Below, one piece after another: positions 1 to 52,494 of a stretch of 64,000 nucleotides of DNA. The position numbers and the translations under genes were made by a program. Position 1 is the stretch's first letter, and each line of letters starts with the position of its first letter. Source of the stretch: Botryllus schlosseri (lineage: Eukaryota); assembly GCA_051294905.1 (NCBI GenBank), contig CM119372.1:38318001-38382000 (forward strand). Direction: 5' to 3'. Below the pieces are notes generated by a model. That model did no database searches, was not told the origin of the DNA, and was given only the letters and a program-made list of their open reading frames with translations.

Positions 1-128
1 ATCTAATTTGGAAAAAACTGTGTAGCTCTAATTCTAATTCTAATCTAGTTTGAAAAAAACTGTGGAGCTCTAATTCTAATTCTAATCTAATTCAGAAAAG
101 CTGAAAATTTTCTAGTTGTCCAAGTCTG
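1..128. mobile_element. 3' end of a hAT-like MITE with internal (CTAATT)n subrepeats, truncated by the window edge
   Basis: Repeated ctctaattctaattctaatcta units, ending in a TIR-like gttgtccaagtctg. Confidence 0.45.
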
Positions 129-1160: not shown

Positions 1161-3310
1161 CTTTGAAGTTACCGACAGTGTTACCAATTTAATTTTGAAG
1201 TGAATTGGTAAACCATGTCGATGTCGCATCGCACATATGACGATTTATGAGGTGGCGGTTGCTGTAGGCCTATATGCATTATAGTGAAATAATGTCGGCA
1301 TATTCAGAAGATGTGTGTAATCAACTGACAGCGACGCATTGTCTAGTAAATCTGACGCAGATACTATTGAGGAATTATCACATTAAGGTAAGTCATTGAG
1401 TGGTAAGTAGTGTAGTTGGATTCGTTTCGTGCAGGCCAATCAAATTACGCCACGTCGCCTTAATTGCCACGCCCATAGTGCCACATCATCCATCCATTGC
1501 TATATCATCGCTGCATTGATTGCCGCATCTTGATACTTTTCTCAGATATTGTATTATGTGTATTTAGGACTAATATCATCCGTCCATATTTTTTAAACTT
1601 GATTTTATGTGTATAAGTTACGGTTTCTGCAGTTTCCACATTTTACGACTCATGATTGCCGCGTCAAAACTTACCTTGGCTAGAATCGACAGATTTTCTA
1701 TTATGTGTATTTAGGACTATGTATTTAAATTCCTATTCAGATTATACATAAATGCGAAAACTATGATGTCTATGTAAGGTTATATTCTCCGGATAATATT
1801 ATTAATATCAAAATTCTACACATCATCACTAATTACTTAATATAAAATGCGATTTTGAGCGCTGCGACTTGATAATATGAACCCCTACGCTTCTGATGCA
1901 TGATTTTTTGTGATAAGGACCTAGGTAACATTCAGAGTCTGCAACGATTGTTTGGATATACATTATAGCAATACCCCACTAAACTATAGGCGGTTATATT
2001 ACTCTATTGGTCAGAGATAACTCATCCGTCCATATTTTTAAACTTGATTTTATGTATACAAGTTACTGTCTCTGCAGCCTCCACATTTTACGACTTATTT
2101 TCATTAGACGCAGGCAAGCGATTCTCCAGTTCGGAGCTACGGAAACAAATCACTCGCATGTGCGCGTTCCGAATAGTCTTGTAGAATTTTCTAAAGTCGT
2201 AACAGCTTAGTAGCATATACGCGAATCCCAAGGTGAAAATAATCGAACGAACTATAGCCGTAGGCGTGCGATTCGCAGGGCTTTATTTATACAAACTCTA
2301 TCGATGCCTGTACGCGAACCCCAGCGTTAAAACGATTAGGTCTAATTAACACGTTCTGAAGCCGAAAATTTAGTCAACATCATTGAGATAGCCATGATCT
2401 GAAGATGGTGATCGAGTGTGACAATAGCACTCGCCAAGGTTAGACAAACATAACCTTAAACTACTCTCTACTTCACAAAATATAAAGTTATAAAAGTAAG
2501 CAGATTTCTATGAAAACCCGTGAAATAGAAGTAAAAGTAGCCTAGAAACATAACTACTTAATGAAAAATCGTGATTCTTGAAGTGACCACATTTCATACG
2601 ATTCAGTCCTTTTCATGTCACTAGAATAAGGTGATTAAACTGACAGTGAAACGCCGCCGGCGTCTTATAACGTAATAATGTAAGCTGCGTCGGGTGCTGC
2701 TATAATGTTAGGAGCGAATATAGTAGAAAGTTCACGTCTGGACATCTGTAAGCAGGTGCGCATACTACCGTAGTAAAACGCATAACAGAATTCACGCAAA
2801 AGTCGATATTGCTTTGTGATGCTTTTGATGTTGTTCCATACCGATTAGGAAGATAGGACTCCTAATTTCCTAACTAACTACATAATCCCTAGTAACGTAG
2901 TCAGACGCATAACGGAATTTACGCAAAATCGGTATTGCTCTGCGATAATTTTGACCACTATGTTTTGATAACTTGCTTCCGAGAAATAAATAACATTCAT
3001 TATACGTTAGATGATACTTTTCCTTGATATTCTATTATGTGTATTTAGGGCTAATGCGACATCACTATATTGGCAACAGGCCTGATTTGAACACACTAAT
3101 TTTGCGAATTAAACTTATCGCCCAACACGGACACTCAATGAAGAGCACCCCGGAGCAGTGGCGTAGCAGCCACTTGGCGGTTCTGGCTCTGCGCCAGGGG
3201 CGGCAGGCTCCAAAGGGGCGGCAAAATGAGGCTGCGCAGTGAGAGAGAGATATATAATATTCTTTTTCGCCTGCACCATCGAGATGCTTTGACGACGGAG
3301 ATGCGATACG

Positions 3311-4264
3311 CAGGACCGTAACTGCCGCACCCCAAACCCCCCAATTGGGGGGGGCGAGCTCGAAGGGGGCCCAAAATTATTTCGTGAATTAGCATAAATT
3401 ATAGAGTATTTTTTGAAAATTTATGCAATTTTTCAAAAAAATTTTCGCGCTACGTGCGATTTCAAGGTGCCAAATATCATGATTATTTTGTACTCTTCCC
3501 CCAAGAAAAGAGCACGCAAGATTTTTGGAAATGGACATATCGGCGTTGGTCAATACCACGACACGACGCACCAAGACATATAACGTTTTAGGACATATTA
3601 CATGCAACTCCAAGAAGTATGCCAGAACGATCGGCAGCGTAAAAACCTTGACCGAAAAGGACTGCCCTTACGCTGACTGAAAACTTTGTCATATATACAA
3701 AATACAGATAGCTTTAATTGTCCATAGCCTAGGCGCCTAAATGACCGACGCCGAATGTTCCTGTCTTGGCAATCTGAACCTCAGAAGACGAATTCCATCC
3801 CGCAGGGAAAAATTATACGCCAGTGAAGAAAAACCAATTTGAAATCGTGTGCGTCTTTTAGTTAAGTACGTTTGCCCGATTCTATATTTTTTGATGTAGC
3901 AGACAGGAGATCACGGAATAACATCATGTAACGAAGTCATACCAACGGGTCCGCCCGCCGAAGATGTTTAATTATTTTTACGAGACCTACAGTTTCCAAG
4001 ACACCTCCTTCAGCTCTACCGGTAAAACTGATAAAGTGAACAGAGAGGACAGGAAAATGATAGCAAAATATATGCAATTCCCGATCTTATTGAGCGATTT
4101 TATCATTAATTATGAAAAATGTTTGCGCTTAGCGCTGGCTCACTAAACAGCACGGCTAGTTGCGTGGAAAAAGCGATCAACACGATGGGGGGTCGGTTTA
4201 TCACCCTATGGGAGCCCAAGACCCAAGTTTTTCGGGGACCTGACGAAGTGCTGTTTCGTTCCTG
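3311..4264. mobile_element. hAT MITE nested in the hAT element; same family as 23683-24420
   Basis: Starts caggaccgtaactgccgcacccc; internal and 3' sequence similar to 23683-24420; TSD not evident. Confidence 0.65.
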
Positions 4265-4991
4265 CCAACGGGTCTGCACCCGAAGATGTTTAATTAATTT
4301 AATAAAATTTAATCAAACAGGTCTCAATCAAAAGCTAGTGTCGTGCTGATTCCGAAAACAGGAATTAATATGTTAACATGGCGATGGAACCACTCCGAAA
4401 TAGCCGTCATGGTCGATTGTTCGGAGAGTTCGCACAAAAAGAAGAATGCTTGGCGAACAATCAGAAAATGCTGGCCTCAGTGTTGTTGAAGAAGTTAGAC
4501 GATGCATGTTTTTCAACCTTTGGACAGATTTAAACTTGAAGCTGAAGCTAGGTTTACCGGCATACAACACTTAAATGATATGCTTCAATTTTTTTAATTC
4601 CCGCGCGCTGCTGCAAAGCGAAAGTCACAATTTATTCCCCGGGTGGCTCGGCTCTGAAGACTATGTCATATCGAGCCTCCCGTCTAACTTGCATGTCACA
4701 TTTCACTGTTACATTTTTCTAGTGTTATGTTGATATGTAATGTATACGAATAAAGATTCTCTCTCTCTCACCAGCGCTTTTAGGAGCACTTATGACGACA
4801 AGGTGGACTTTTTGGAGTTAACTGCGAAAATTGTCATGCCTTATACCTTCGAATTAGGGATCATATAAATCAGAAAATTGCTAGCTTTTCGTACAAACCA
4901 ATATGAGGCCTCTAGGACGAACACAAATTAAGATATGACCAAGATCATATGAAGTTGTTCAACTTGAGATTTTAAAAGGGTCAAGAGGCTG

Positions 4992-5300
4992 GTGCGGAGC
5001 AGTAAAACCACGTTTGATCGTAAAGCAACAACGTTTGATGTTTTACAGTGGTTAGTTAATGCAAAGCTACCTGATTCGACACCATATTTAGGCTCGTGTC
5101 TGAAACTTTACCTGACCATTGGTGTTTCAATTGCGAGCTGTGTGAGGAGCTTCTCAAAGCTTAAACTGATTAAATCTTATTTACGTTCTATACCAGTAAT
5201 GATGACCGGCTATCTGCTCTATCTATGCATTCTGTCTATAGAAAGAGACTACGTTCAAAAACTTGAATTTGAGGATATTATCGCTGATTTTGCTTTGAGG
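4992..5300 (+). pseudogene. hAT transposase C-terminal dimerisation domain fragment
   Basis: YLTIGVSIASCVRSFSKLKLIKSYLRS...LSIERD..FEDIIADFA matches the hAT C-terminal (hATC) motif; upstream part broken. Confidence 0.9.
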
Positions 5301-6429
5301 CGGCTATTGATTTTCTATTTTCACAATACATTCGTTCGCTATTTCTTGTCTTTATTATTTTTGGCCTTATTAACGTTGAGGCGGCGAGGCTGAGACGCGA
5401 CATATTATTTGTAATTATTTTTATTGACAAGATTGTTTGAACATGAATCTATGTCGAAATTTGCTGCGGTCTACTTAGGGGGGCGGCATTTTAACCGAGA
5501 GCCAGGGGCGGCAGCACATGCTGCTACGCCAGTGCCCCGGAGACCCGCATAAATGCTCCACAATTCTCGACATATAATATACTGAGCATATAATAAGCTA
5601 ACAAAACCTATACTTGAGTACTCCGAAATGTACAAGTACTTTAACTTTACACGACGTTTTTGTAAAATGAATACTAATTTTAATGGAAAATAAAAATTAT
5701 GTACTCAAGTAGGTTTTTGTCTACACGCACGAACTACTCAAGTGTTTATGACACAGGAATGATTCATTAAGTATACCGCAAGCAGGCCAAACCTATACTT
5801 GAGTACTCCAAAATGTACAAGTACTTCGCTATGTACCCCCTCCACGTAAAAAGTATCTATAGGTTTTAGACTACTTTATCGATTTTCGATGTTGCGCAAA
5901 TACCACAAACTTTGCTTTCTTTCAGAGCTGGCAACTAAATGCAAGACAGACTTTACGCAAAAGTCTCTATTCTGAAAATTTTATCAAGTTAATACATTAA
6001 AAACTTATACTTGAGCACTACGAAATGTACAAGTACTTTATCTTTACACGACGTTTTTGTAAAATGAATACTAATTTTATTGAAAAAATAAAAAATAAAA
6101 AAGAGAGAAAAATTACATTTTATCCCGGAACGCAAAAAGAAAAATCGTATGAATTTGTAAACTACTTATTCATGACATAGTAATAATTCTACTTGTACAC
6201 TTTTTCACATTTTATAACACTTTAAGTAGTACTTAACAGTTTCAGTTTTAAATAAAATACGGAATATAAACTAATCGAAAAATTCGGTAACCAATTGCGC
6301 GCAGGCTATGCATACAAATGAGGAAAGTTACATCAACACGCGTTAACTAGTTGTATCGAGTTATCGAATGATTTTTTCCTTACATCAAAACAACTAGAAC
6401 GTGAAACTACATTAAAAACGTATCTAAAT

Positions 6430-7460
6430 GAGCTCCAGGGCATTGTGATTATGCAGCATGCCAAATTTCATCAACCATTTCATGATGGAACAACTTTAAA
6501 ACTAACGCAGTTCTATAGCAACTTTCGCCTAAATCTGTTTTCGGTAGCGTATACATATACATAGTCAGCTTTAATAACAGAATTACCAAGCTAATATGTG
6601 ACTCCTCACCTTGCAACTTGGTACGTAGTTGTAGGACATTGTGATTATGTAGCATACCAAATTTCCTCACGCATTTCATAATGGAACAACTTTAAAACTA
6701 ACGCGGCTCTACATCGACTTTTTGCGTACATCTGTTTTGCGGGAGCGTATAGAACGTACCTATACATAGTTAACTTTATTAACGGAATTACCACGCTTAA
6801 CATTGAATCCCAACTCTAAACTTGATACGTAGTTGTAGGACATTATGGCAATGCACCATGCTAAATTTCATCACACATCTAAGGATGGAACACCTTTGAA
6901 ACTATCGCAGTCGAATATCGACTTTTACGCAAATCTGTTTTTCGTGAACATAGCATATGCCGATACATAGTCAATTTTAGTAACAGAATTAGCATGTTAA
7001 ACATTAAATTCTCACCTTGAACGTTGGTACGCAGTTGTAGGACATAATAACAATGCACCATACCAAATTTCGTCAGGCATTCCATGATGTAACACCTTTA
7101 AAACCAACGCAGTTCTATACAGACTTTTGGCTAAATCTGTTTTTCCGTAGCGTAGCACGTACCTATACATAGTCAACTTTAATAACGGAATTACCATATT
7201 AATAATCGACTCCCCCCCTTGAAACTCGCTACGCAGTTGTAAGACATTATGACAATGCACCATGTCTAATTTTGTTACGCATTTCATGATTGAACAACTT
7301 TTAAACTAACGCAGTTCCATACCGACCTTTGCGGGAGCGTAGCACGTACCTATGCATACTCAACTTTAATAACGGAATTACCGAGCTAAACATTGAATGC
7401 GCAACTTGAAGATTGGTTCACAGGTGTAGGACATTATGACAATGGAACATATCAAATACC
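6430..7460. repeat. Tandem array of ~5 diverged ~200-bp units (left arm)
   Basis: Recurrent catttcatgatggaacaactttaaaactaacgcagttctat and gtagttgtaggacatt blocks about 200 bp apart. Confidence 0.85.
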
Positions 7461-7872
7461 GTGTTTCCATGAAAATAACAAGACATTACACATCCAGTAT
7501 ACTTCCAATCGACATCGCGCTGGTTGATGCGGCGCTGTGCACCATATAGATGCGGCAATCAATGCGGTGATGATGTGGCAATGGATGATGTGGCACTATA
7601 GGCGTGGCACTTGATGATGTGGCGCAGATGATGTGGCAATGGGTGTGCTATAGGTGCGGCAATGGGTGGATGATGTGGCAAGGGGGTGTCCTATAGGTGC
7701 GACAGAAAAACACACATATTTGACCGTATGGTCTTAGTATGAACCGACATGCATTCGACTTGTGGAAAAATGTGTCGCACACTATTTCACCGAGATTACA
7801 ACCCTTTCACGGATATTCGTTGGTGCTATCGATACGGTGAACAGCACGTTATGTATAGCGATATCTCCACAG

Positions 7873-8148
7873 TCAAATACGCGAACCATGCACAACTATA
7901 TACCCCGACTTTCGTTGAATATTCACGACACCAACAAATCTGTACATCTCCTTTCCCTCGACATCAATGATAGAATCCTCATCCCAATGCGCAGTACGAA
8001 TGGTGGGTTCATCGGGTGTAAAATCCAAATCAAATGACACCAAGGTCTGCTTTCTCATTTTCAATATTTCCACCACCGCATCTTGTCTGTGTCTTAGCAC
8101 TACCGTGTGAGGATGGCGAAATCTGTGGGTGGTAACACGGATGGACAT
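7873..8148 (-). CDS. Small hypothetical protein (~91 aa, MSIRVTTHRF...), possible residual element ORF; left-arm copy
   Basis: Intronless ORF from an ATG, protein-like composition, same translation in both arms; no recognised family. Confidence 0.35.
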   Translation of the reverse strand: MSIRVTTHRFRHPHTVVLRHRQDAVVEILKMRKQTLVSFDLDFTPDEPTIRTAHWDEDSIIDVEGKEMYRFVGVVNIQRKSGYIVVHGSRI

Positions 8149-11100
8149 GATATTCTTCGATATGATCAACTGAAACCACGGATGTGGTGGGTTAGAGTCT
8201 TGTCGTGATGGTCCGTTTCGAAATGCAAGCGGATGAACTAGACCAAAAGTTTCGAAGATGCGTTTTATAATTGCTCTAGGTGTGAAATAGACATCGCACT
8301 CTTGCGGGGAAACAACACGAATTCAGTCTTCACACCGCAGAAACACAGCCGCTTGGTTAACATCACAAAACCGCAATTGAACTCAAGATTGCCATACACG
8401 GAATCGCTGTTAACGATGTCTGACTGCGGCGTTTCGACGAGTAACGAATTCTCGTATTTAGTATTGATTGTGACACATAGTCAAAACAGCGACAGTTTTC
8501 ACAACCCGGTACATACATTGAACCAACTGATGTAAGGTGAAACACTACGTTCACACCAAAAAAAGTTTGCAGGGTATGACCACCACCAACATATAGAGTA
8601 GTGAGTGAGTAATTAAACTACATACCCCGATTTTACTATATTCCGAGATCCGGATCACGATTCAAGTCTACCTGAGAATCCGAACTACCCTGTGAAGTTG
8701 ATATATCAAGTTGTGAACCGTGAAAGGGTTGTAATCTCGGTGAAATAGTGTGCGACACATTTTTCCACAAGTCCAATGCATGTCGGTTCATACTAAGACC
8801 ATGTTACGGTCAAATATGTGTGTTTTTCTGTCTCCAAGTCAGCTACCCCCACATTGAATGTACAGAGTCGGTGCATGTATGAGACTTCAGAACATGAATT
8901 TGTAATCCATGATGCTTGTAGTACCGGCCATGATGTTATCCATGATGTATGTAATGTCACACACCTCTTTTACGCGAATACTTGGTATCTATGAACAATC
9001 GTGAAGTATACTGGATGTGTAATGTCTTGTTATTTTCATGGAAACACGGGGGGGGGGGGTGTAACATGTTTGAATATTGTTCATTGGTTTGTCGATTCAG
9101 AGTTGATATCCGGATCCGGTTAATACTTTCTCGGGTTTCCGATTTCAAACTGAACGGTGGGATATGTATTGACCAATAAAGAGTGACACAATATAGTAAA
9201 CATGTGTGAGAAAACTCACAAGTAACCCGGATTTGTTAGCGCGACGGGGACATAAATTCAACCATTATCCGTGTACCAAGCAGTTACCAAAGTCATGGAG
9301 GTTGCTAATTTCAACATATTGACTCTGTGGGAGGCTAAAGCACGAACCGGGACACACACAGACACACACACACCAGGACACACAATATCCGTCGATTTCC
9401 AAAGCATACATTTCGATATACAAGAGCATATTGTTATTTCATGTGGTTAACCGTTGATATAGATGCGATGCGATCGACGCGGGTATACTCTGAAACCGGT
9501 TGTCCGTTTATATGAGAAAAGATGCTGTGAAGGACTTTAAAAAGCGGCAGTTGAGCAAGACGTAGTTTGCTTACTGCAGTAATTCATTTCACTTGCAGAA
9601 CTTCTATGGCCAAGCTCCACGTGTGTGTTTCAGAGTAGTTCCAAATGAATGAATTTCATTTTCACGTGCTTGAATTCGTTTTACCATACTGTAAAATACT
9701 TTTACATGCCCAAGTTGGGGATCCTCGTTACATTGTCTTCTTGTGTGTTGGTGATTAAATACATTGCGGCGCTGTCACTTGGCTCTTAATTGGGTTGTTT
9801 CATCTGAAAGAACTAATTTTGTCTGTTATAATACTTTATTAGACTTGTATGGCGAGGCGTCTGGTATCGAGAAGTGAGATCGCGAGCAATCATTGAGTCA
9901 GTCGTGATGTCTGATTGGGAGTGTCGGCCTCTTATATCCAGCAAGTGTAATGTGCCATATTAGGCCATAAGTATCGTAGGCCCCGCGTGAAGTGTACAAA
10001 TTTCGATGTTGCGCAAATACCACAAACTTTGCTTGCTTTCAGAGCCGGCAACTAAATTCAAGACAGACTTTACGCAAAAGTTGCTATTCTGAAAATTTTG
10101 TCAAGGTAATGGTTTGGAAACTTATACTTGAGCACTCGTACTTCTTGAGAATACCCAAGTAGGTTTTTTGCCTAGATGCACCACATAGTCTCAAGTCCTT
10201 ATGATATTGGAGTACATCAACTTCATGATAGCTAGAGTATTAAACAGTAATATACCTAGATACTAACGTTTTACTTACTCGGAAATGACTACTTCTACCT
10301 TATTTTAAAGGATACCTCGTTCGAAGCGAAATTGTATGTGGGTTTTGGATAACATCCAAGATGTAGGCTCACTTCGAAGGTTACTTCGTAAAACTCAAAT
10401 ATTGCGCAGTGAGAGTTCGCAAATTCTCGAAGTATTTTTGTTATTTTTATTGCGATAAGTCATTCTGCAGCGCGAAAATGCGTCGTAGGATATAGATGAA
10501 ACTAGCACCACTCATCAAGACCGCTGAAAACAGTACGTTTCAACATTTAGTAGCAGTAAATTTCTAGTAAAGTACAAGACGTGATGATTTCCGAGTGAGT
10601 TAAAAAGTATTGCAGGTATAGTTTACCTGAAAACCGAATACTCTGAAATAGAAGTAGATGCAGTGTAAATAGTTAATCACTTGATTAAGTTTAGCGCAAG
10701 CAGATAAAACCTATACTTGAGTAGTACAAAATGCACGAGTACTTCGCTATCGCCTCCCAGCACGTAATAAGTGCTTTTACCGATACTCGTCGGTTTCAGT
10801 TTTAGATAGAATTCAGAAACCAAATAATTTCATAAACATAAGCTAATTTAATGAATTTACTCGAATGTAGTATGCCGCGCTGATAAGATTAATTATAATA
10901 TACTTATCATGTTACAGCGATTTTTCTAGCGTAGAAAATCTTTAAAATGTAGTAAGCAGGCCAAATGAAGATATTCGTTGAGTTGAATAAACATAAAAAA
11001 TACTCTAGACCACTTTATCGGTACTTTACTGTTTCAGTTTTAGATAAAATTTGTCCCTTTCACCTATAATTACAACTCCTCGCTATCTAAACATGTTTAG

Positions 11101-11758
11101 AATATATTATTTGCGATGATACGAACCCGTGAAGTGCTCAAGTAGCTTTTCGTAGGATATAGATGAAACTGACAACACTCACCAAGACCGCTGGTCCACT
11201 GAAAAAAGTACATTGTAGCAGTAAAGTCCTACTAAAGTACAAGAAGTAATGATTTCCCAGTTAGTTGAAAAGTAAGTACTGAAGGTATAGTTTGCTGGAA
11301 AAAGCGAAAAACTCTGAAATCGAAGTAGATGCAGTGTAAATAGGTAATCACTTCATTAAGTATAGCGCAAGCAGGCCAAACCTATACTTGAGTACTGCAA
11401 AATGTACAAGTACTTCGCTATGTTCTCCCTCCACGTAAAAAGTGACTAGGTTTTAGACTACTTTATCGGTACTCGACAGTTTCAGTTTTAGATAAAATTT
11501 GGTAAGACTTTAAATTTTAAAGTAGTTTGAGCTTACGTTTGTATCACCTTGACAAGTAACATTATCAGACATGAAAATGATACTATCACTTAATATAGAA
11601 GTTAACACGCGTCAATGTGCTTCGGAATTCACGAGAAATTGCTTACTAAGAGAAGTATATTCTTGTATACACAATAGCGAAGAGAATCTTTAAAATGTAG
11701 TAAGCAGGCCGATGGGTATTCGTTTAGTTGTATAGGCATAAAAAACATTCCCGCGCGC

Positions 11759-11800
11759 TCTTAAACAAAACACTTCCTAACCCTACCACCTAATACTAAG
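11759..11800. other. 42-bp non-palindromic spacer at the palindrome axis
   Basis: cccgcgcgc|tcttaaacaaaacacttcctaaccctaccacctaatactaag|gcgcgcggg. Confidence 0.95.
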
Positions 11801-14800
11801 GCGCGCGGGAATGTTTTTTATGCCTATACAACTAAACGAATACCCATCGGCCTGCTTACTACATTTTAAAGATTCTCTTCGCTATTGTGTATACAAGAAT
11901 ATACTTCTCTTAGTAAGCAATTTCTCGTGAATTCCGAAGCACATTGACGCGTGTTAACTTCTATATTAGGTGATAGTATCATTTTCATGTCTGATAATGT
12001 TACTTGTCAAGGTGATACAAACGTAAGCTCAAACTACTTTAAAATTTAAAGTCTTACCAAATTTTATCTAAAACTGAAACTGTCGAGTACCGATAAAGTA
12101 GTCTAAAACCTAGTCACTTTTTACGTGGAGGGAGAACATAGCGAAGTACTTGTACATTTTGCAGTACTCAAGTATAGGTTTGGCCTGCTTGCGCTATACT
12201 TAATGAAGTGATTACCTATTTACACTGCATCTACTTCGATTTCAGAGTTTTTCGCTTTTTCCAGCAAACTATACCTTCAATACTTACTTTTCAACTAACT
12301 GGGAAATCATTACTTCTTGTACTTTAGTAGGACTTTACTGCTACAATGTACTTTTTTCAGTGGACCAGCGGTCTTGGTGAGTGTTGTCAGTTTCATCTAT
12401 ATCCTACGAAAAGCTACTTGAGCACTTCACGGGTTCGTATCATCGCAAATAATATATTCTAAACATGTTTAGATAGCGAGGAGTTGTAATTATAGGTGAA
12501 AGGGACAAATTTTATCTAAAACTGAAACAGTAAAGTACCGATAAAGTGGTCTAGAGTATTTTTTATGTTTATTCAACTCAACGAATATCTTCATTTGGCC
12601 TGCTTACTACATTTTAAAGATTTTCTACGCTAGAAAAATCGCTGTAACATGATAAGTATATTATAATTAATCTTATCAGCGCGGCATACTACATTCGAGT
12701 AAATTCATTAAATTAGCTTATGTTTATGAAATTATTTGGTTTCTGAATTCTATCTAAAACTGAAACCGACGAGTATCGGTAAAAGCACTTATTACGTGCT
12801 GGGAGGCGATAGCGAAGTACTCGTGCATTTTGTACTACTCAAGTATAGGTTTTATCTGCTTGCGCTAAACTTAATCAAGTGATTAACTATTTACACTGCA
12901 TCTACTTCTATTTCAGAGTATTCGGTTTTCAGGTAAACTATACCTGCAATACTTTTTAACTCACTCGGAAATCATCACGTCTTGTACTTTACTAGAAATT
13001 TACTGCTACTAAATGTTGAAACGTACTGTTTTCAGCGGTCTTGATGAGTGGTGCTAGTTTCATCTATATCCTACGACGCATTTTCGCGCTGCAGAATGAC
13101 TTATCGCAATAAAAATAACAAAAATACTTCGAGAATTTGCGAACTCTCACTGCGCAATATTTGAGTTTTACGAAGTAACCTTCGAAGTGAGCCTACATCT
13201 TGGATGTTATCCAAAACCACATACAATTTCGCTTCGAACGAGGTATCCTTTAAAATAAGGTAGAAGTAGTCATTTCCGAGTAAGTAAAACGTTAGTACTC
13301 TAGGTATATTACTGTTTAATACTCTAGCTATCATGAAGTTGATGTACTCCAATATCATAAGGACTTGAGACTATGTGGTGCATCTAGGCAAAAAACCTAC
13401 TTGGGTATTCTCAAGAAGTACGAGTGCTCAAGTATAAGTTTCCAAACCATTACCTTGACAAAATTTTCAGAATAGCAACTTTTGCGTAAAGTCTGTCTTG
13501 AATTTAGTTGCCGGCTCTGAAAGCAAGCAAAGTTTGTGGTATTTGCGCAACATCGAAATTTGTATACTTCACGCGGGGCCTACGATACTTATGGCCTAAT
13601 ATGGCACATTACACTTGCTGGATATAAGAGGCCGACACTCCCAATCAGACATCACGACTGACTCAATGATTGCTCGCGATCTCACTTCTCGATACCAGAC
13701 GCCTCGCCATACAAGTCTAATAAAGTATTATAACAGACAAAATTAGTTCTTTCAGATGAAACAACCCAATTAAGAGCCAAGTGACAGCGCCGCAATGTAT
13801 TTAATCACCAACACACAAGAAGACAATGTAACGAGGATCCCCAACTTGGGCATGTAAAAGTATTTTACAGTATGGTAAAACGAATTCAAGCACGTGAAAA
13901 TGAAATTCATTCATTTGGAACTACTCTGAAACACACACGTGGAGCTTGGCCATAGAAGTTCTGCAAGTGAAATGAATTACTGCAGTAAGCAAACTACGTC
14001 TTGCTCAACTGCCGCTTTTTAAAGTCCTTCACAGCATCTTTTCTCATATAAACGGACAACCGGTTTCAGAGTATACCCGCGTCGATCGCATCGCATCTAT
14101 ATCAACGGTTAACCACATGAAATAACAATATGCTCTTGTATATCGAAATGTATGCTTTGGAAATCGACGGATATTGTGTGTCCTGGTGTGTGTGTGTCTG
14201 TGTGTGTCCCGGTTCGTGCTTTAGCCTCCCACAGAGTCAATATGTTGAAATTAGCAACCTCCATGACTTTGGTAACTGCTTGGTACACGGATAATGGTTG
14301 AATTTATGTCCCCGTCGCGCTAACAAATCCGGGTTACTTGTGAGTTTTCTCACACATGTTTACTATATTGTGTCACTCTTTATTGGTCAATACATATCCC
14401 ACCGTTCAGTTTGAAATCGGAAACCCGAGAAAGTATTAACCGGATCCGGATATCAACTCTGAATCGACAAACCAATGAACAATATTCAAACATGTTACAC
14501 CCCCCCGTGTTTCCATGAAAATAACAAGACATTACACATCCAGTATACTTCACGATTGTTCATAGATACCAAGTATTCGCGTAAAAGAGGTGTGTGACAT
14601 TACATACATCATGGATAACATCATGGCCGGTACTACAAGCATCATGGATTACAAATTCATGTTCTGAAGTCTCATACATGCACCGACTCTGTACATTCAA
14701 TGTGGGGGTAGCTGACTTGGAGACAGAAAAACACACATATTTGACCGTAACATGGTCTTAGTATGAACCGACATGCATTGGACTTGTGGAAAAATGTGTC

Positions 14801-15405
14801 GCACACTATTTCACCGAGATTACAACCCTTTCACGGTTCACAACTTGATATATCAACTTCACAGGGTAGTTCGGATTCTCAGGTAGACTTGAATCGTGAT
14901 CCGGATCTCGGAATATAGTAAAATCGGGGTATGTAGTTTAATTACTCACTCACTACTCTATATGTTGGTGGTGGTCATACCCTGCAAACTTTTTTTGGTG
15001 TGAACGTAGTGTTTCACCTTACATCAGTTGGTTCAATGTATGTACCGGGTTGTGAAAACTGTCGCTGTTTTGACTATGTGTCACAATCAATACTAAATAC
15101 GAGAATTCGTTACTCGTCGAAACGCCGCAGTCAGACATCGTTAACAGCGATTCCGTGTATGGCAATCTTGAGTTCAATTGCGGTTTTGTGATGTTAACCA
15201 AGCGGCTGTGTTTCTGCGGTGTGAAGACTGAATTCGTGTTGTTTCCCCGCAAGAGTGCGATGTCTATTTCACACCTAGAGCAATTATAAAACGCATCTTC
15301 GAAACTTTTGGTCTAGTTCATCCGCTTGCATTTCGAAACGGACCATCACGACAAGACTCTAACCCACCACATCCGTGGTTTCAGTTGATCATATCGAAGA
15401 ATATC

Positions 15406-15681
15406 ATGTCCATCCGTGTTACCACCCACAGATTTCGCCATCCTCACACGGTAGTGCTAAGACACAGACAAGATGCGGTGGTGGAAATATTGAAAATGAG
15501 AAAGCAGACCTTGGTGTCATTTGATTTGGATTTTACACCCGATGAACCCACCATTCGTACTGCGCATTGGGATGAGGATTCTATCATTGATGTCGAGGGA
15601 AAGGAGATGTACAGATTTGTTGGTGTCGTGAATATTCAACGAAAGTCGGGGTATATAGTTGTGCATGGTTCGCGTATTTGA
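15406..15681 (+). CDS. Small hypothetical protein (~91 aa); right-arm copy
   Basis: Mirror of 7873-8148. Confidence 0.35.
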   Translation: MSIRVTTHRFRHPHTVVLRHRQDAVVEILKMRKQTLVSFDLDFTPDEPTIRTAHWDEDSIIDVEGKEMYRFVGVVNIQRKSGYIVVHGSRI

Positions 15682-16093
15682 CTGTGGAGATATCGCTATA
15701 CATAACGTGCTGTTCACCGTATCGATAGCACCAACGAATATCCGTGAAAGGGTTGTAATCTCGGTGAAATAGTGTGCGACACATTTTTCCACAAGTCGAA
15801 TGCATGTCGGTTCATACTAAGACCATACGGTCAAATATGTGTGTTTTTCTGTCGCACCTATAGGACACCCCCTTGCCACATCATCCACCCATTGCCGCAC
15901 CTATAGCACACCCATTGCCACATCATCTGCGCCACATCATCAAGTGCCACGCCTATAGTGCCACATCATCCATTGCCACATCATCACCGCATTGATTGCC
16001 GCATCTATATGGTGCACAGCGCCGCATCAACCAGCGCGATGTCGATTGGAAGTATACTGGATGTGTAATGTATTGTTATTTTCATGGAAACAC

Positions 16094-17124
16094 GGTATTT
16101 GATATGTTCCATTGTCATAATGTCCTACACCTGTGAACCAATCTTCAAGTTGCGCATTCAATGTTTAGCTCGGTAATTCCGTTATTAAAGTTGAGTATGC
16201 ATAGGTACGTGCTACGCTCCCGCAAAGGTCGGTATGGAACTGCGTTAGTTTAAAAGTTGTTCAATCATGAAATGCGTAACAAAATTAGACATGGTGCATT
16301 GTCATAATGTCTTACAACTGCGTAGCGAGTTTCAAGGTGGGGAGTCGATTATTAATATGGTAATTCCGTTATTAAAGTTGACTATGTATAGGTACGTGCT
16401 ACGCTACGGAAAAACAGATTTAGCCAAAAGTCTGTATAGAACTGCGTTGGTTTTAAAGGTGTTACATCATGGAATGCCTGAAGAAATTTGGTATGGTGCA
16501 TTGTTATTATGTCCTACAACTGCGTACCAACGTTCAAGGTGAGAATTTAATGTTTAACATGCTAATTCTGTTACTAAAATTGACTATGTATCGGTATATG
16601 CTATGTTCACGAAAAACAGATATGCGTAAAAGTCGATATTCGACTGCGATAGTTTCAAAGGTGTTCCATCATTAGATGTGTGATGAAATTTAGCATGGTG
16701 CATTGCCATAATGTCCTACAACTACGTATCAAGTTTAGAGTTGGGATTCAATGTTAAGCGTGGTAATTCCGTTATTAAAGTTAACTATGTATAGGTACGT
16801 TCTATACGCTCCCGCAAAACAGATGTACGCAAAAAGTCGATGTAGAGCCGCGTTAGTTTTAAAGTTGTTCCATTATGAAATGCGTGAGGAAATTTGGTAT
16901 GCTACATAATCACAATGTCCTACAACTACGTACCAAGTTGCAAGGTGAGGAGTCACATATTAGCTTGGTAATTCTGTTATTAAAGCTGACTATGTATATG
17001 TATACGCTACCGAAAACAGATTTAGGCAAAAGTTGCTATAGAACTGCGTTAGTTTTAAAGTTGTTCCATCATGAAATGGTTGATGAAATTTGGTATGCTG
17101 CATAATCACAATGCCCTGGAGCTC
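16094..17124. repeat. Mirror copy of the ~200-bp tandem array (right arm)
   Basis: Reverse complement of 6430-7460. Confidence 0.85.
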
Positions 17125-20100
17125 ATTTAGATACGTTTTTAATGTAGTTTCACGTTCTAGTTGTTTTGATGTAAGGAAAAAATCATTCGATAACTCGATA
17201 CAACTAGTTAACGCGCGTTGATGTAACTTTCCTCATTTGTATGCATAGCCTACGCGCAATTGGTTACCGAATTTTTCGATTAGTTTATATTCCGTATTTT
17301 ATTTAAAACTGAAACTGTTAAGTACTACTTAAAGTGTTATAAAATGTGAAAAAAGTGTACAAGTAGAATTATTACTATGTCATGAATAAGTAATTTACAA
17401 ATTCATACGATTTTTCTTTTTGCGTTCCGGGATAAAATGTAATTTTTCTCTCTTTTTATTTTTTATTTTTTCAATAAAATTAGTATTCATTTTACAAAAA
17501 CGTCGTGTAAAGATAAAGTACTTGTACATTTCGTAGTGCTCAAGTATAAGTTTTTAATGTATTAACTTGATAAAATTTTCAGAATAGAGACTTTTGCGTA
17601 AAGTCTGTCTTGCATTTAGTTGCCAGCTCTGAAAGAAAGCAAAGTTTGTGGTATTTGCACAACATCGAAAATCGATAAAGTAGTCTAAAACCTAGATACT
17701 TTTTACGTGGAGGGAGTACATAGCGAAGTACTTGTACATTTTGGAGTACTCAAGTATAGGTTTGGCCTGCTTGCGGTATACTTAATGAATCATTCCTGTG
17801 TCATAAACACTTGAGTAGTTGGTGCGTGTAGACAAAAACCTACTTGAGTACATAATTTTTATTTTCCATTAAAATTAGTATTCATTTTACAAAACACGTC
17901 GTGTAAAGTTAAAGTACTTGTACATTTCGGAGTACTCAAGTATAGGTTTTGTTAGCTTATTATATGCTCAGTATATTATATGTCGAGAATTGTGGAGCAT
18001 TTATGCGGGTCTCCGGGGTGCTCTTCATTGAGTGTCCGTGTTGGACGATAAGTTTAATTCGCAAAATTAGTGTGTTCAAATCAGGCCTGTTGCCAATATA
18101 GTGATGTCGCATTAGCCCTAAATACACATAATAGAATATCAAGGAAAAGTATCATCTAACGTATAATGAATGTTATTTATTTCTCGGAAGCAAGTTATTA
18201 TCAAAACATAGTGGACAAAATTATCGCAGAGCAATACCGATTTTGCGTAAATTCCGTTATGCGTCTGACTACGTTACTAGGGATTATGTAGTTAGTTAGG
18301 AAATTAGGAGTCCTATCTTCCTAATCGGTATGGAACAACATCAAAAGCATCACAAAGCAATATCGACTTTTGCGTGAATTCTGTTATGCGTTTTACTACG
18401 GTAGTATGCGCACCTGCTTACAGATGTCCAGACGTGAACTTTCTACTATATTCGCTCCTAACATTATAGCAGCACCCGACGCAGCTTACATTATTACGTT
18501 ATAAGACGCCGGCGGCGTTTCACTGTCAGTTTAATCACCTTATTCTAGTGACATGAAAAGGACTGAATCGTATGAAATGTGGTCACTTCAAGAATCACGA
18601 TTTTTCATTAAGTAGTTATGTTTCTAGGCTACTTTTACTTCTATTTCACGGGTTTTCATAGAAATCTGCTTACTTTTATAACTTTATATTTTGTGAAGTA
18701 GAGAGTAGTTTAAGGTTATGTTTGTCTAACCTTGGCGAGTGCTATTGTCACACTCGATCACCATCTTCAGATCATGGCTATCTCAATGATGTTGACTAAA
18801 TTTTCGGCTTCAGAACGTGTTAATTAGACCTAATCGTTTTAACGCTGGGGTTCGCGTACAGGCATCGATAGAGTTTGTATAAATAAAGCCCTGCGAATCG
18901 CACGCCTACGGCTATAGTTCGTTCGATTATTTTCACCTTGGGATTCGCGTATATGCTACTAAGCTGTTACGACTTTAGAAAATTCTACAAGACTATTCGG
19001 AACGCGCACATGCGAGTGATTTGTTTCCGTAGCTCCGAACTGGAGAATCGCTTGCCTGCGTCTAATGAAAATAAGTCGTAAAATGTGGAGGCTGCAGAGA
19101 CAGTAACTTGTATACATAAAATCAAGTTTAAAAATATGGACGGATGAGTTATCTCTGACCAATAGAGTAATATAACCGCCTATAGTTTAGTGGGGTATTG
19201 CTATAATGTATATCCAAACAATCGTTGCAGACTCTGAATGTTACCTAGGTCCTTATCACAAAAAATCATGCATCAGAAGCGTAGGGGTTCATATTATCAA
19301 GTCGCAGCGCTCAAAATCGCATTTTATATTAAGTAATTAGTGATGATGTGTAAAATTTTGATATTAATAATATTATCCGGAGAATATAACCTTACATAGA
19401 CATCATAGTTTTCGCATTTATGTATAATCTGAATAGGAATTTAAATACATAGTCCTAAATACACATAATAGAAAATCTGTCGATTCTAGCCAAGGTAAGT
19501 TTTGACGCGGCAATCATGAGTCGTAAAATGTGGAAACTGCAGAAACCGTAACTTATACACATAAAATCAAGTTTAAAAAATATGGACGGATGATATTAGT
19601 CCTAAATACACATAATACAATATCTGAGAAAAGTATCAAGATGCGGCAATCAATGCAGCGATGATATAGCAATGGATGGATGATGTGGCACTATAGGCGT
19701 GGCAATTAAGGCGACGTGGCGTAATTTGATTGGCCTGCACGAAACCAATCCAACTACACTACTGTGGTATATACGATTTTGAGAGTCCTCTGACGACCAA
19801 TACCATTACAGCAGGGTTCGCCACTCAAAACGGGTCGCGGGCCACTTTTCAGATTTCGTAGAGGCCGCGGATCGCAAGCATGCAATAACGAGACAAAATA
19901 GACCACACAGTTTAGCAAGCACGCTTTTAAAACTTTACGTCAGTGCAGCGCTATGCTTTCTAACGCAGGCGATGTGCGTATTTACCATATGCCTGGGCAC
20001 AATGATTCGAGTACTCGAATCTGAATCGACTAATAATTCTAAACATTCGGGTCGAGTAGTAAAATTTGAATTTTTTGAGTACCCAAAGTATACGTTCCAT

Positions 20101-47665: not shown

Positions 47666-48103
47666 TTCGTAACCAGAAGTGAGGGCCCGCGGGAGAGAAG
47701 AATTATTGCCAGTGTTGCCAATTGACGCATTTAGAAGCCAAATTACAGAATTTAGGCACATTTTCATGCTGGTTAGCACCGCTGTTTCCGCTATTCCGTA
47801 TTTTAGGAATGCCCGTATGGCACATTGGCACATTCGAATTTCTTCAACCAGAGCTATGTAAATTTGGTAACAGCACATTAGATCTTATCAAGTGCTGTTT
47901 ACATGAGCACCTAAAGAAGTATTTGATGTTAGAAAGAATTGTAGAGATATGGAATTGATGTTCGCATATAGCTGCATATCGAAATATTAGGTCCAGGTCA
48001 CTTTATCTCAGAGGTCTCAAACACGCGGCCCGCCAGATCATTTCGTGCGGCGCGCGTCAGCATTTTGGATTTTTGAGTATTCGACAATATTTAACTGCCA
48101 CAT

Positions 48104-50684: not shown

Positions 50685-52494
50685 CTGCCACATATCTTTT
50701 TTTAGATTTGAGAACTTGAAATACGATCTAAAACTACTACACAATCCTGAAACTTTACTCATCAAACTTCACTATCACATCACTTTCAAAAGTTACCATG
50801 CGGTGGAAGATCGGCTATATACGTCACATTACCTGTTTATGATGATAGGACTTGACCCGTTGATAGTTCGTGACAGAAAATTGTGATTTGTACGGGCACG
50901 ACGTTTTGTAGAATTACTCGAACTCGTAATGAATCGGTGATAAAATAAGAATGACTCGAGTTGAGTCGGGTGAAACGTTACAATCGGAGAAGGACTTGTG
51001 GCTCGGAAAGCCGTGACTTGGTACAACCACGTACGTAACAAACTCCCAAAATGTTATAGTAACTGAACTGAACAAACTGAAATAGTAATACATCAAAAGG
51101 CCGTAACTTGCGTTGCGGAGCGTATTTAGCTATCTAAGTAGGTCGGTATGGCAACTATCTGCATTCTGCTCCCCTCTTAATGTGAAGTTAGTTATTTCCT
51201 GCGTAATATTGGGTCTCTTTAACCATGTTAATGTTGCCTATTGAAGGGGGCGAGTATAAAGTAGCGGTATTACGCTCCATTGCTGTAACACCAATGGTTT
51301 CGTCGGCGACTAGAAATTTATATTGCTATGGCACATTAATGATCGACAGTTGTTATTGATCTGTAAATCAAACGCTGATTTAATTTTACTTTGGTAATGG
51401 CATGATCAACAGCCAAGTTATCAGGAGTATGCCAGCAACCCAGATTAGGATGTATTGCTCCAATGCTCCGATCAGGTCAATATTTGTTAAACTTTTATAT
51501 AATCTACCAATAATTGTGGCACGTCAAATGTCCGCTAGCTGCCAAATTATAACCCAGCAGCTTTTACGATGTCATGAGATGCATTTGTAGGCTACTCTCG
51601 CATAGTGTCTTTAACTACATATTTTGACAGACTATGCCAAGTACAACAACAATTTTATTCAAACATTTGAAAATGTGATATTTTTCGTACTATAGACGTG
51701 ATTTCACAATAGTAAATCACATTTCGCGTTGCGCGCGGTATGCCAGTCTGCAATTTCCCGTAAAATAAGGCCTATACTTGGAAATACATTGAAAACCCCT
51801 ATTATTGTTGCTGCGGCCCGCGGCGCCATCAAAAACTGAAAATGGGCCCGAGACCACGATTGAGTTTGAGACCTCTGCTTTATCTGCAGCCAAGTGGCGC
51901 AAGTACAACAGCCTGTTTGCATAATGTTAACAATCCTTCGCCATCTGGGCTACCATACATGTTTCTCTTTCTGGACACATGGATTTAGGTCGAGTCGAGA
52001 TACTACTAGGTTTGCTGATCCATAGGAAAAGTTTGCCTAGTTCGTATGCTATATTCGTGCTACTTTTTCTGTTGTAGACTTCTTGATTCAACTTGAGTTG
52101 AATTCAACCCTATAGTAGAAGAGCACGAATTCTATCAAGTCGTGGTGGTACAATCTTCTCTCTGCAGCCTAAAGTAAGCTTGATGGTAATGCAATGCTTA
52201 ATGCCTATTGCAACACATTACCATACTTGAGATAATTTGGCACTATTTCACAAGATATTTGGGCAGTAGTAGTTGCTCACCTATATATTGTGATTCGGCT
52301 TGTTCTTTCGTCTATGATATTTTATGTGCTCATGGAACAAACTAGTATGGCAAGTTTTTTGTATAGTGACCCCTGAAAGTGAAGATGTTAGTCATTTGTT
52401 TTGTATAAGTACGGGATAGAAATACCTTCTTTTCTCAAATTTACTGCCTAAAGATGCTACTGGTTGGATTCCAACCGGTGTAGGTTTTGGTGTT

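What the first reader, a model, noticed from the sequence alone, without database searches (positions are those of the whole stretch)
1406..19763. Integrated ~16-kb 'snap-back' Maverick/Polinton: a whole-element palindrome with a 6-bp TSD
Seen: two ~8-kb arms that are near-identical reverse complements (excluding one hAT insertion), AGTAGT...ACTACT termini and an exact flanking GTGGTA duplication. Established: Mavericks/Polintons have AG/AGT-type termini, 6-bp TSDs from a retroviral-like integrase, protein-primed replication and TIRs usually up to about 1 kb. Here the whole element is TIR, and no pPolB, integrase, ATPase or capsid ORF is visible. Inference: this is a defective genome formed when replication from one end folded back (like snap-back/copy-back viral genomes). 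That would give two identical ends, later integrated in trans by a helper Maverick, i.e. a satellite-like parasite of Mavericks.
Basis: partly seen in the sequence, partly recalled or inferred. Interest (0 to 1): 0.93.

Follow-up and report, generated by a model that had tools for sequence, protein, structure and literature searches.

The report
Palindromic non-coding Maverick satellite family
This 18-kb stretch is one copy of a roughly 150-copy family of gene-less, perfectly palindromic mobile elements that carry the same ends as the virus-like Maverick elements of this animal genome and apparently ride on them.

Summary
Window 1406-19763 is a whole-element palindrome: arms 1406-11758 and 11801-19763, a 42-nt axis, AGTAGT...ACTACT ends and a GTGGTA duplication. 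One arm holds a 2.4-kb hAT insertion.

It is not a one-off. The genome holds about 100 element-sized pairs of the same terminal motif (median 15.5 kb) and 147 copies of the axis loop. All 13 copies I fetched are whole-element palindromes without long genes. An exact 6-bp duplication flanks 31 of 38 pairs.

The Maverick link is supported. Coding Mavericks in the same genome have a pPolB-like ORF, an A32-type ATPase and an rve+chromodomain integrase. They carry the same terminal architecture and 6-bp duplications, but TIRs of only about 160 nt.

New features:
- The axis loop is conserved and resembles the host telomere repeat. It is clamped by a CG-rich inverted repeat, which points to one founding fold-back.
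- A hypervariable 24-nt terminal "barcode" is identical at both ends of a palindrome.
- Every difference between two sister copies is shared by both arms.

I read it as a palindromic satellite of Mavericks whose arms are re-copied from each other during extrachromosomal replication. The replication step is inferred, not shown.

The parts
1400..1405 (.). Left copy of the 6-bp target-site duplication GTGGTA
   Evidence: It is identical to 19764-19769.
1406..1411 (+). Terminal trinucleotide reiteration AGTAGT (left end)
   Evidence: AGTAGT was present at both ends of 11 of the 13 fetched elements and of all 27 further end pairs read, apart from single-base variants in L063 (AGAAGT) and the right end of M3 (AGTACT).
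1412..1435 (+). 24-nt hypervariable terminal 'barcode'
   Evidence: It differs between copies; 12 columns inside the first 31 differ between two copies that are 99% identical overall. Within a palindrome it is the same at both ends. In this copy 1 of the 24 barcode positions differs between the ends.
1436..1476 (+). Conserved subterminal block: CCAATC, 7 nt, then GCCACGTC-4 nt-TAATTGCCACGCCCAT
   Evidence: 101 forward and 100 reverse matches in the genome, and 0 for the control pattern; the same block sits at the ends of the coding Mavericks.
1406..11758 (+). Left arm (10,353 nt including the hAT insertion)
3148..5542 (+). Nested defective hAT element (3156-5534) with its 8-bp duplication CCCCGGAG (3148-3155 and 5535-5542). 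It is present in the left arm only.
   Evidence: ends and duplication. (Dimer_Tnp_hAT 1.2e-6 at 4968-5390). (joint 3147->5535 with 8 shared letters in contigs from other copies).
6437..7444 (.). Array of a 202-nt tandem repeat (about 5 copies, 75% matches), mirrored at 16223-17117
7550..7701 (-). Internal, inverted partial copy of the Maverick-type subterminal short repeats (GCCACATCATC-like), mirrored at 15853-15990
   Evidence: (93.5% to M1 5679-5740).
11744..11758 (+). Left half of the conserved CG-rich clamp (AACATTCCCGCGCGC)
11759..11800 (+). 42-nt asymmetric axis loop, a degenerate telomere-like (CCCTAA-type) sequence
   Evidence: the loop core is found 81 times forward and 66 times reverse in the genome, control 0; the host telomere repeat is TTAGGG.
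11801..11815 (+). Right half of the CG-rich clamp (GCGCGCGGGAATGTT)
   Evidence: The region 11720-11840 folds as DNA at -48.1 kcal/mol, z -17.8.
11801..19763 (-). Right arm (7,963 nt), the reverse complement of the left arm without the hAT
19758..19763 (-). Terminal reiteration ACTACT (right end)
19764..19769 (.). Right copy of the 6-bp target-site duplication GTGGTA

Best explanation
SHOWN. Window 1406-19763 is one member of a family of non-coding, whole-element palindromes in this 495-Mb animal genome. The family has roughly 100-150 copies with a median length of about 15.5 kb.

Each copy ends in AGTAGT...ACTACT and is flanked by a 6-bp target duplication. Each carries a conserved subterminal block that is also found at the ends of coding Maverick/Polinton elements of the same genome. 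Those coding elements are 17-18 kb long and have a pPolB-like ORF, an A32-type ATPase and an rve+chromodomain integrase. Their TIRs are only about 160 nt.

All palindromes share one homologous axis: a telomere-like 37-42-nt loop inside a CG-rich inverted repeat. Between sister copies, every difference is present in both arms.

INFERRED.
1. The family is a satellite of the Mavericks. The helper integrase makes the 6-bp duplication. The helper protein-primed polymerase replicates the element from the AGTAGT reiteration by sliding or jumping back.
2. The palindrome arose once. A truncated linear element carrying telomere-type repeats next to a self-complementary CG tract folded back.
3. In every extrachromosomal replication round the displaced strand snaps back into a 7.6-kb hairpin, or the polymerase copies back at the clamp. 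One arm therefore serves as template for the other. This keeps the arms and the two terminal barcodes identical, while chromosomal copies slowly diverge and collect one-armed insertions such as the hAT here.
4. The tight length mode near the helper's size suggests a packaging constraint.
For: Family and architecture.
- The terminal 28-mer occurs 101 times forward and 100 times reverse, with 0 for the control.
- Among the first 100 places listed there are 40 +/- pairs. Their median length is 15,491 nt and 23 of the 40 are 14.0-16.5 kb.
- All 13 fetched elements are whole-element palindromes.
- The loop core occurs 81+66 times, control 0, at pair midpoints.

TSD.
- Exact 6-bp duplications: 9 of 11, 16 of 20 and 6 of 7.

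Maverick link.
- PF04665 gave 67 matches in the genome.
- Next to one of them lie an rve domain (1.8e-12) with Chromo (2.7e-8), an A32 ATPase (6.9e-9) and a 1,294-aa ORF.
- The nearest Atlas clusters to the 1,295-aa ORF of M3 that corresponds to it carry PF03175 (score 0.97; 17 of 30 hits). That M3 ORF has a DTDS motif.
- These elements start with AGTAGT + 24 nt + CCAATC + GCCACGTC..TAATTGCCACGCC. Their TSDs are TACGCA (M2) and GGCAGT (M3).
- The left barcode of one coding Maverick equals that of a palindrome elsewhere.

Concerted arms.
- For C12 against C13, 44 substitution and 13 gap columns are copy-specific and shared by both arms. There are 0 arm-specific columns, 0 cross columns and 13 substitution singletons.
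- For C1d against C4, 564 substitution and 2,731 gap columns are copy-specific, and again 0 are arm-specific.
- Nested TEs sit in one arm only. Homogenisation has therefore not acted on them in place.

Background.
- Terminal reiterations serve sliding or jumping back in protein-primed replication (passages of PMC5175343).
Against: - Direct genome searches with PF03175 and PF00770 found nothing.
- hmmscan of the 1,295-aa ORF did not report PF03175. It gave only Pox_F12L at 0.003, and the PDB sequence search gave only zinc-finger noise. The polymerase call therefore rests on the Atlas and one motif.
- No capsid or protease family was identified.
- Only about 70-250 nt of the arms align to the coding Maverick, plus about 600 nt in one subfamily. 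The origin of the remaining roughly 7 kb per arm is unknown.
- No extrachromosomal form, packaged form or empty allele was seen.
- 7 of 38 pairs lack an exact TSD. 3 of these differ by one base, 2 differ by two bases and 2 are unrelated.
- Arm identity could also come from gene conversion in the chromosome.
Confidence: 0.75

Rival explanations
1. One reading: this locus is a single defective Maverick genome. It arose when replication from one end folded back, and it was then integrated once.
For: The palindrome, the AGTAGT ends and the 6-bp TSD are real. Coding Mavericks with the same ends exist.
Against: The genome holds 147 loop cores and about 100 terminal pairs. All 13 fetched copies are palindromes with the same axis or its variant. 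The arms contain almost no Maverick sequence.
Confidence: 0.03
2. It is a Maverick-mobilised palindromic family, but the arms are kept alike by intrachromosomal gene conversion between arms, as in sex-chromosome palindromes. No hairpin or copy-back step in replication is involved.
For: Concerted differences with 0 arm-specific columns are what gene conversion would also give. No extrachromosomal intermediate was observed.
Against: One-armed insertions persist: the hAT here, and a LINE and others elsewhere. Arm divergence ranges from about 0 to about 1% between copies, like an insertion clock. Kilobase-scale differences between subfamilies are always symmetric. A divergent 24-nt barcode is replaced at both ends at once.
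Confidence: 0.15
3. It is a foldback-type cut-and-paste DNA transposon unrelated to Mavericks, moved by an unidentified DDE transposase.
For: It has long inverted arms and no genes. Its subterminal short repeats resemble transposase-binding arrays.
Against: The terminal block, AGTAGT and the 6-bp TSD are shared with elements that encode an rve integrase and a pPolB-like protein. No transposase was found in any of the 13 copies, except in nested foreign TEs.
Confidence: 0.04
4. It is an assembly or read artefact, such as a fold-back chimeric long read.
For: Long perfect palindromes are a known artefact class (recalled, not taken from any call).
Against: Dozens of loci have different 6-bp duplications and different barcodes. 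The axis is conserved. A second species label holds the family at 95% or more. A contig bridges the left junction, though it may come from the same sample.
Confidence: 0.01

Closest known systems
Maverick/Polinton elements (autonomous)
   Same: 5'-AG-type termini, a 6-bp TSD and terminal inverted repeats. In this genome the coding copies carry the identical terminal block and encode an rve+chromodomain integrase, an A32-type ATPase and a pPolB-like ORF.
   Different: The palindromes encode nothing and the whole element is inverted repeat, whereas the coding copy M3 has TIRs of about 160 nt at 87% identity. The axis loop is absent from the coding copies.
Adenovirus-type protein-primed replicons: terminal reiteration, jumping back, panhandle repair of ITRs, and incomplete genomes with long inverted repeats
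   Same: A trinucleotide reiteration lies at the very end (AGTAGT here). Passages of PMC5175343 describe the adenovirus 3'-GTAGTA reiteration. Ends are kept identical. A self-annealing displaced strand would offer a duplex origin.
   Different: Nothing here shows a terminal protein or a free linear form. These elements are integrated and multi-copy.
Parvovirus rolling-hairpin dimers and self-complementary AAV genomes
   Same: A duplex palindrome with a small hairpin-forming element at the centre can interconvert with a snap-back monomer.
   Different: The ends are not hairpins, no Rep/HUH system is implied, and the element is 15 kb. The comparison is by analogy (recalled).
Foldback (FB-type) transposons of Drosophila and other animals and plants
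   Same: Very long inverted arms, little or no coding capacity, and many copies.
   Different: FB arms are built of tandem subrepeats and have other TSD lengths (recalled). Here the arms are mostly unique sequence, the TSD is 6 bp and the ends are Maverick ends.
Hairpin-capped breaks giving inverted dimers; Tetrahymena rDNA palindrome formation
   Same: A short inverted repeat next to a DNA end is thought to nucleate fold-back and give a giant palindrome with a short asymmetric centre. Here that would be a CG clamp with a telomere-like loop.
   Different: This is recalled knowledge. Those are chromosomal or rDNA events, not a transposing family.
Transpovirons and other gene-poor satellites of polinton-like viruses
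   Same: Small linear TIR-bearing elements that depend on a related virus (passages of PMC5499653).
   Different: Transpovirons keep a few genes, are about 7 kb and are not palindromes.

Membership tests
Maverick/Polinton (as a non-autonomous derivative) | 6-bp target-site duplication | tested here: met
   GTGGTA lies on both sides here. An exact duplication was found in 31 of 38 end pairs. It is also present in coding copies M2 and M3.
Maverick/Polinton (as a non-autonomous derivative) | Inverted termini beginning 5'-AG | tested here: met
   AGTAGT...ACTACT.
Maverick/Polinton (as a non-autonomous derivative) | Termini shared with an element that encodes the enzymes | tested here: met
   AGTAGT + 24 nt + CCAATC + GCCACGTC..TAATTGCCACGCC lies at the ends of M1, M2 and M3 and of a fourth coding copy on C13 that has an A32 match between its ends.
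Maverick/Polinton (autonomous) | Encodes a retroviral-type (rve) integrase | tested here: not met
   No rve was found in the window's arms among 91 frames, and no ORF of 150 aa or more in 4 further copies. It is met only in the coding relatives: rve 1.8e-12 plus Chromo 2.7e-8.
Maverick/Polinton (autonomous) | Encodes a protein-primed family B polymerase | tested here: not met
   Absent from the palindromes. In the coding relatives it is only probable: Atlas 0.97 to PF03175 clusters and a DTDS motif, but no PF03175 hit by hmmscan or by genome search.
Maverick/Polinton (autonomous) | Capsid module (major and minor jelly-roll proteins, A32/FtsK ATPase, cysteine protease) | tested here: inconclusive
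   The ATPase is met in the coding relatives (PF04665 6.9e-9). The 299-, 238-, 425- and 155-aa ORFs have no Pfam match. PF00770 gave 0 matches. I ran no structure prediction.
Copy-back / snap-back defective viral genome | Both arms are a stretch of the helper genome joined head to head | tested here: not met
   Only about 70-250 nt per end align to the coding Maverick, plus about 600 nt in C12/C13/C3.
Copy-back / snap-back defective viral genome | Two identical ends derived from one end; replication depends on a helper | tested here: inconclusive
   Identical ends are met. Dependence on a helper is inferred from the lack of genes and was not tested.
Foldback (FB-type) transposons | Arms made of tandem subrepeats; family-typical TSD (9 bp in Drosophila FB, recalled) | tested here: not met
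   There is only one 1-kb tandem array per roughly 8-kb arm, and the TSD is 6 bp.
hAT (the nested insertion only) | 8-bp TSD, short CAG...CTG-type TIRs, hAT dimerisation domain | tested here: met

The most novel reading that the evidence does not exclude
These are obligate palindromic satellites of an animal Maverick virus. Their unit of inheritance would be a single 7.6-kb arm plus a programmed turn-around signal, the CG clamp with its telomere-derived loop.

In each round of protein-primed replication the second arm would be rebuilt from the first, through a hairpin monomer. The 15-kb dimer would be the form that fits the helper's capsid and integrase. The 24-nt terminal barcodes would be shuffled between helper and satellites by template switching during co-replication.

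If true, the family would be a natural record of Maverick replication chemistry, which has never been shown at the bench.
Probability: 0.35. Interest if true: 0.88.

Novelty: new variant of a known kind. Interest (0 to 1): 0.78.

Why it matters
Mavericks/Polintons are assumed to replicate by protein priming and to form virions, but neither has been shown directly.

A family of about 150 gene-less copies with the following traits offers sequence-level signatures of that life cycle:
- It keeps only the Maverick ends.
- It keeps a helper-like total length.
- Its two halves stay identical through a conserved central turn-around.

The signatures are a terminal trinucleotide reiteration, copying of one end from the other, and a size constraint.

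It also gives an LTR-like clock: arm divergence dates each insertion.

It would be the first described satellite or defective-interfering-type lineage of Mavericks that I could find. My searches listed no paper whose title or abstract describes one, and the passages I read from two of the listed papers do not either.

Long perfect palindromes are also fragile sites, so 150 of them matter for the stability of this genome.

Tried and rejected
Searches that found nothing
- PF03175 and PF00770 searches of the genome gave 0 matches. For PF03175 the tool's own control also rang nowhere. The pPolB-like ORF was found only by walking out from an A32 ATPase hit.
- hmmscan and PDB phmmer on the 1,295-aa ORF gave no polymerase family.
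- A first pattern with the wrong spacer gave 0 matches, which was my error. I corrected it.
- The terminal block was not found in IMG/VR viral contigs: 0 matches.
- Rfam gave no match on 1-20500.
- The earlier-findings index had no notes for this genome.

Only 13 palindromes and about 2.5 coding copies were therefore read in full, and the right end of M1 was never found.

An idea dropped
- I tested whether M1 and its neighbour M2 form one 44-kb coding palindrome. This was rejected: no central symmetry, different barcodes and different flanks. M2 has its own TSD.

Public reads
- No RNA holder was listed among the indexed runs.
- In the one RNA run laid, 456 of 461 reads lay only partly on the stretch. 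I draw nothing about expression from it.
- No contig from another individual crossed the left junction or showed an empty site.

Axis orientation
- The orientation of the axis loop (81 forward, 66 reverse) cannot be read as flip/flop isomers. A palindrome inserted either way round gives the same picture.

Full report
**1. The observation**

Window 1406-19763 is a palindrome.
- The arms are 1406-11758 and 11801-19763.
- Aligned to each other they are 99.5% identical in two blocks: 5 mismatches in 1,753 nt and 18 in 6,227 nt.
- The two blocks are separated only by an insertion in the left arm.
- The 42 nt between the arms (11759-11800) are not self-complementary.
- The element begins AGTAGT and ends ACTACT. 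GTGGTA flanks it on both sides.
- The insertion is a defective hAT at 3156-5534. It has an 8-bp duplication CCCCGGAG and CAGTGG-type ends and a hAT dimerisation domain (1.2e-6).
- Contigs from other copies join 3147 to 5535 with 8 shared letters, so those copies lack the hAT.
- Of 91 frames of 45 aa or more in the left arm, only the hAT piece reached a Pfam cut-off.
- Rfam found nothing.

**2. It is a family, not an accident**

- The terminal 300 nt match many places in the host assembly, mostly as +/- pairs 12-36 kb apart. The assembly is 495 Mb in 219 contigs, and the window is C2:38,318,001-38,382,000.
- A 28-nt subterminal pattern occurs 101 times forward and 100 times reverse. The reversed control occurs 0 times.
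- Among the first 100 places listed, 40 form adjacent +/- pairs. Their median implied length is 15,491 nt. 23 of the 40 lie between 14.0 and 16.5 kb, and the range is 7.0-25.7 kb.
- Counting the window's copy, 13 elements were read in full. All 13 are whole-element palindromes, several of them interrupted in one arm by foreign transposons (LINE, Penelope-like, hAT).
- The 4 copies first read in full have no ORF of 150 aa or more.

**3. Target duplications**

| Set | Pairs read | Exact 6-bp duplication | Others |
|---|---|---|---|
| Fully read elements with both ends | 11 | 9 | 1 differs by one base, 1 has none |
| Further end pairs | 20 | 16 | 2 differ by one base, 1 by two, 1 joins two different ends |
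| Pairs with the Maverick-type subterminal variant | 7 | 6 | 1 |
| Total | 38 | 31 | 7 |

No target consensus is apparent.

**4. Anatomy of the end**

Every end reads in this order:
1. AGTAGT
2. a 24-nt segment
3. CCAATC
4. 7 nt
5. GCCACGTC, 4 nt, TAATTGCCACGCC
6. arrays of GCCACATCATC-like short repeats.

The 24-nt segment is hypervariable.
- Nearly every element has its own version. The versions are built from recurring 5-8-nt modules in different combinations.
- C12 and C13 are 99% identical over 100% of their 15.2 kb. Yet they differ at 12 columns within the first 31, against about 45 columns in the remaining 7,550.
- Within a palindrome the two ends carry the same version. In one search, 14 of 20 pairs were 43/43 identical, 5 were 42/43 and 1 was 35/43.

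**5. The axis**

- In 9 of the 13 elements the centre is AACATTCCCGCGCGC, then a 37-42-nt loop, then GCGCGC(GC)GGGAATGTT.
- The loop comes in two related versions. Both are degenerate CCCTAA-type repeats.
- The axis is conserved even where the adjoining arm sequence is unrelated, as in the inner element of C7b.
- The loop core occurs 81 times forward and 66 times reverse in the genome, control 0. Where I could check, it lies at the midpoint of terminal pairs.
- The host's own telomere repeat is TTAGGG, seen as arrays at the end of contig C1.
- The region folds as a DNA hairpin at -48.1 kcal/mol, z -17.8.
- The axis is absent from the coding Mavericks M1 and M3.
- A single homologous axis across all subfamilies argues for one founding fold-back event.

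**6. The Maverick link**

- PF03175 found nothing in the genome.
- PF04665, the A32-type packaging ATPase, gave 67 matches in open frames of 96-274 aa.
- Around one of them (M1, L074-L076) lies a co-oriented gene row:
  - a 1,294-aa ORF;
  - the ATPase (6.9e-9);
  - an integrase with rve (1.8e-12) and a chromodomain (2.7e-8);
  - five ORFs without a Pfam match;
  - a divergent BIR-domain ORF (1.9e-18).
- The large ORF's nearest Atlas clusters are eukaryotic PF03175 proteins of 1,300-1,460 aa (score 0.97; 17 of 30 hits). It has a DTDS motif.
- However, hmmscan gives only Pox_F12L at 0.003. I therefore call it pPolB-like, probable.
- M1 begins with AGTAGT + 24 nt + CCAATC + GCCACGTCGCCTTAATTGCCACGCC. 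This is the architecture of the palindromes.

Two copies were read at both ends.
- M2 (C4:11,847,292-11,865,392; 18.1 kb) has the duplication TACGCA and two different barcodes.
- M3 (L081+L082; 17.6 kb) has the duplication GGCAGT, TIRs of only about 164 nt at 87% identity, different barcodes at its two ends, and one end mutated to AGTACT. Its ATPase frame is split into shorter pieces than in M1.
- M2's left barcode is identical to that of a palindrome on another chromosome (L068/L069). The sequence after CCAATC differs. Ends are therefore exchanged between coding and non-coding elements.
- Several further ATPase hits lie 4-7.5 kb inside a terminus of this type.

**7. What the arms are made of**

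- Against M3 the palindromes align only over about 70-250 nt at the ends. In the C12/C13/C3 subfamily they also align over about 600 nt of the right-hand non-coding part.
- The rest, about 7 kb per arm, is non-coding sequence of unknown origin. It differs strongly between subfamilies: pairwise coverage is 0.2-0.8 at 89-98% identity.
- The window's arm also holds a 202-nt tandem array and an internal inverted copy of the subterminal short repeats.

**8. Concerted arms**

I oriented copies by the loop and aligned the four arms of two copies.

| Comparison | Copy-specific, shared by both arms | Arm-specific and shared between copies | Cross pattern | Substitution singletons |
|---|---|---|---|---|
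| C12 vs C13 | 44 substitution + 13 gap columns | 0 | 0 | 13 |
| C1d vs C4 | 564 substitution + 2,731 gap columns | 0 | 0 | 14 |

- Point changes, kilobase indels and the barcode are therefore always present in both arms.
- Within a copy, arm differences are few:
  - 3 in 7,565 nt in C12;
  - 10 in about 7,575 nt in C13;
  - 23 in about 7,980 nt here;
  - rough upper bounds of 0-1% across 11 copies (for copies whose alignment crosses the axis, those figures include the loop aligned to itself).
- Foreign insertions sit in one arm only.
- Together this fits resetting of the arms at each transposition cycle, followed by independent decay in the chromosome. It fits continuous in-place conversion less well, though I cannot exclude the latter for point differences.

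**9. How it most likely works**

Shown: the structure, copy number, duplications, shared ends and concerted arms.

Inferred:
- Integration is by the Maverick integrase, which gives the 6-bp duplication.
- Replication is by the Maverick protein-primed polymerase. Passages of PMC5175343 state that such systems usually need a terminal reiteration for sliding or jumping back, and that adenovirus uses a trinucleotide one. AGTAGT is such a reiteration. It is the only part of the first 30 nt that never varies.
- A displaced strand of a palindrome is self-complementary. It should snap back into a 7.6-kb hairpin whose duplex tip is a normal origin.
- Either repair in that hairpin, or copy-back of the nascent strand at the CG clamp, or replication of hairpin-capped halves would make one arm the template of the other. 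I cannot tell these apart.
- The narrow length mode (15-16 kb without nested insertions, against 17-18 kb for coding copies) suggests a packaging limit.
- The CCAAT-, ACGTCA- and CCACGCCC-type motifs of the conserved block look like host transcription-factor sites of the kind found in adenovirus ITRs. That resemblance is recalled and is a lead only.

**10. Comparison and novelty**

- The family qualifies as a non-autonomous Maverick derivative by its ends and TSD.
- It fails the coding criteria of an autonomous Maverick.
- It fails the criterion that a copy-back genome consists of helper sequence.
- Three full-text searches listed no paper whose title or abstract describes a palindromic or non-coding Maverick/Polinton derivative family, and passages from two of the listed papers (PMC5499653, PMC6431247) describe none.
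- The single hit for 'non-autonomous polintons' refers to an old view of Tlr1.
- Subscription papers and Repbase entries were not searchable, so an undescribed library entry may exist.

**11. Limits**

13 of about 150 palindromes were read in full, along with three coding copies (two with both ends).
- No independent long reads, empty alleles, free forms or clear transcripts were obtained.
- A second species label holds the family at 95% identity or more.

Noticed in passing
L074:6546-7178 (-) and L081:1080-1712 (-): The coding Mavericks carry a BIR (inhibitor-of-apoptosis) domain ORF just inside the left terminus, divergent from the main gene row (Pfam BIR 1.9e-18).
   Followed up: partly
L020-L023 (G000:C7:14251100-14287700): This is a composite locus.
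- The outer motif-bearing ends read AGTAGA, and the flanking DNA beyond them is itself inverted-repeated.
- Inside lies a complete 13.7-kb palindrome with AGTAGT plus a barcode, a different subterminal sequence and the conserved axis.
- It also holds two inverted copies of a hAT-like transposase ORF (525 aa) and a Penelope-like RT/GIY-YIG ORF (733 aa).
   Followed up: partly
G000:C3:4215496 and 4221275; G000:C5:21060390 and 21067250: Two axis loops lie within one terminal pair (20.9 and 22.1 kb). They may be one palindrome nested in another, or tandem forms.
   Followed up: no
window 48101-50687, 38370-40824, 58966-61043, 53234-53672: Other inverted-repeat structures lie in the window. The arms are 496 nt at 96%, about 290 nt at 91%, 224 nt at 96%, and 207 nt at 87% with a 25-nt spacer. 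They are unrelated to the terminal block of this family, which matches only at 1461 and 19696.
   Followed up: no
L024:5243-8821 (-) and L024:8891-L025 (G000:C1:3915100-3935099): One arm of another palindrome holds a non-LTR retrotransposon with 1,193-aa and 473-aa open frames. I did not scan it against Pfam, because one search failed on a frame error.
   Followed up: no
window 1-92: A 42-nt tandem repeat of 2.2 copies lies at the start of the window.
   Followed up: no
window 1271-2000 and 3096-3460 (RNA run X23): A few RNA-seq reads lie on both strands of the terminal region, and more lie on the start of the hAT. Nearly all (456 of 461) fit only in part, so they probably come from other copies or chimeric transcripts.
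   Followed up: partly
L034/L035 (G000:C1:23406928-23422060): A 15-kb pair whose two ends carry different barcodes (35 of 43 positions alike) and unrelated flanks. An axis loop lies at its midpoint (C1:23414867). It may be a recombinant between two elements, or a rearrangement.
   Followed up: no
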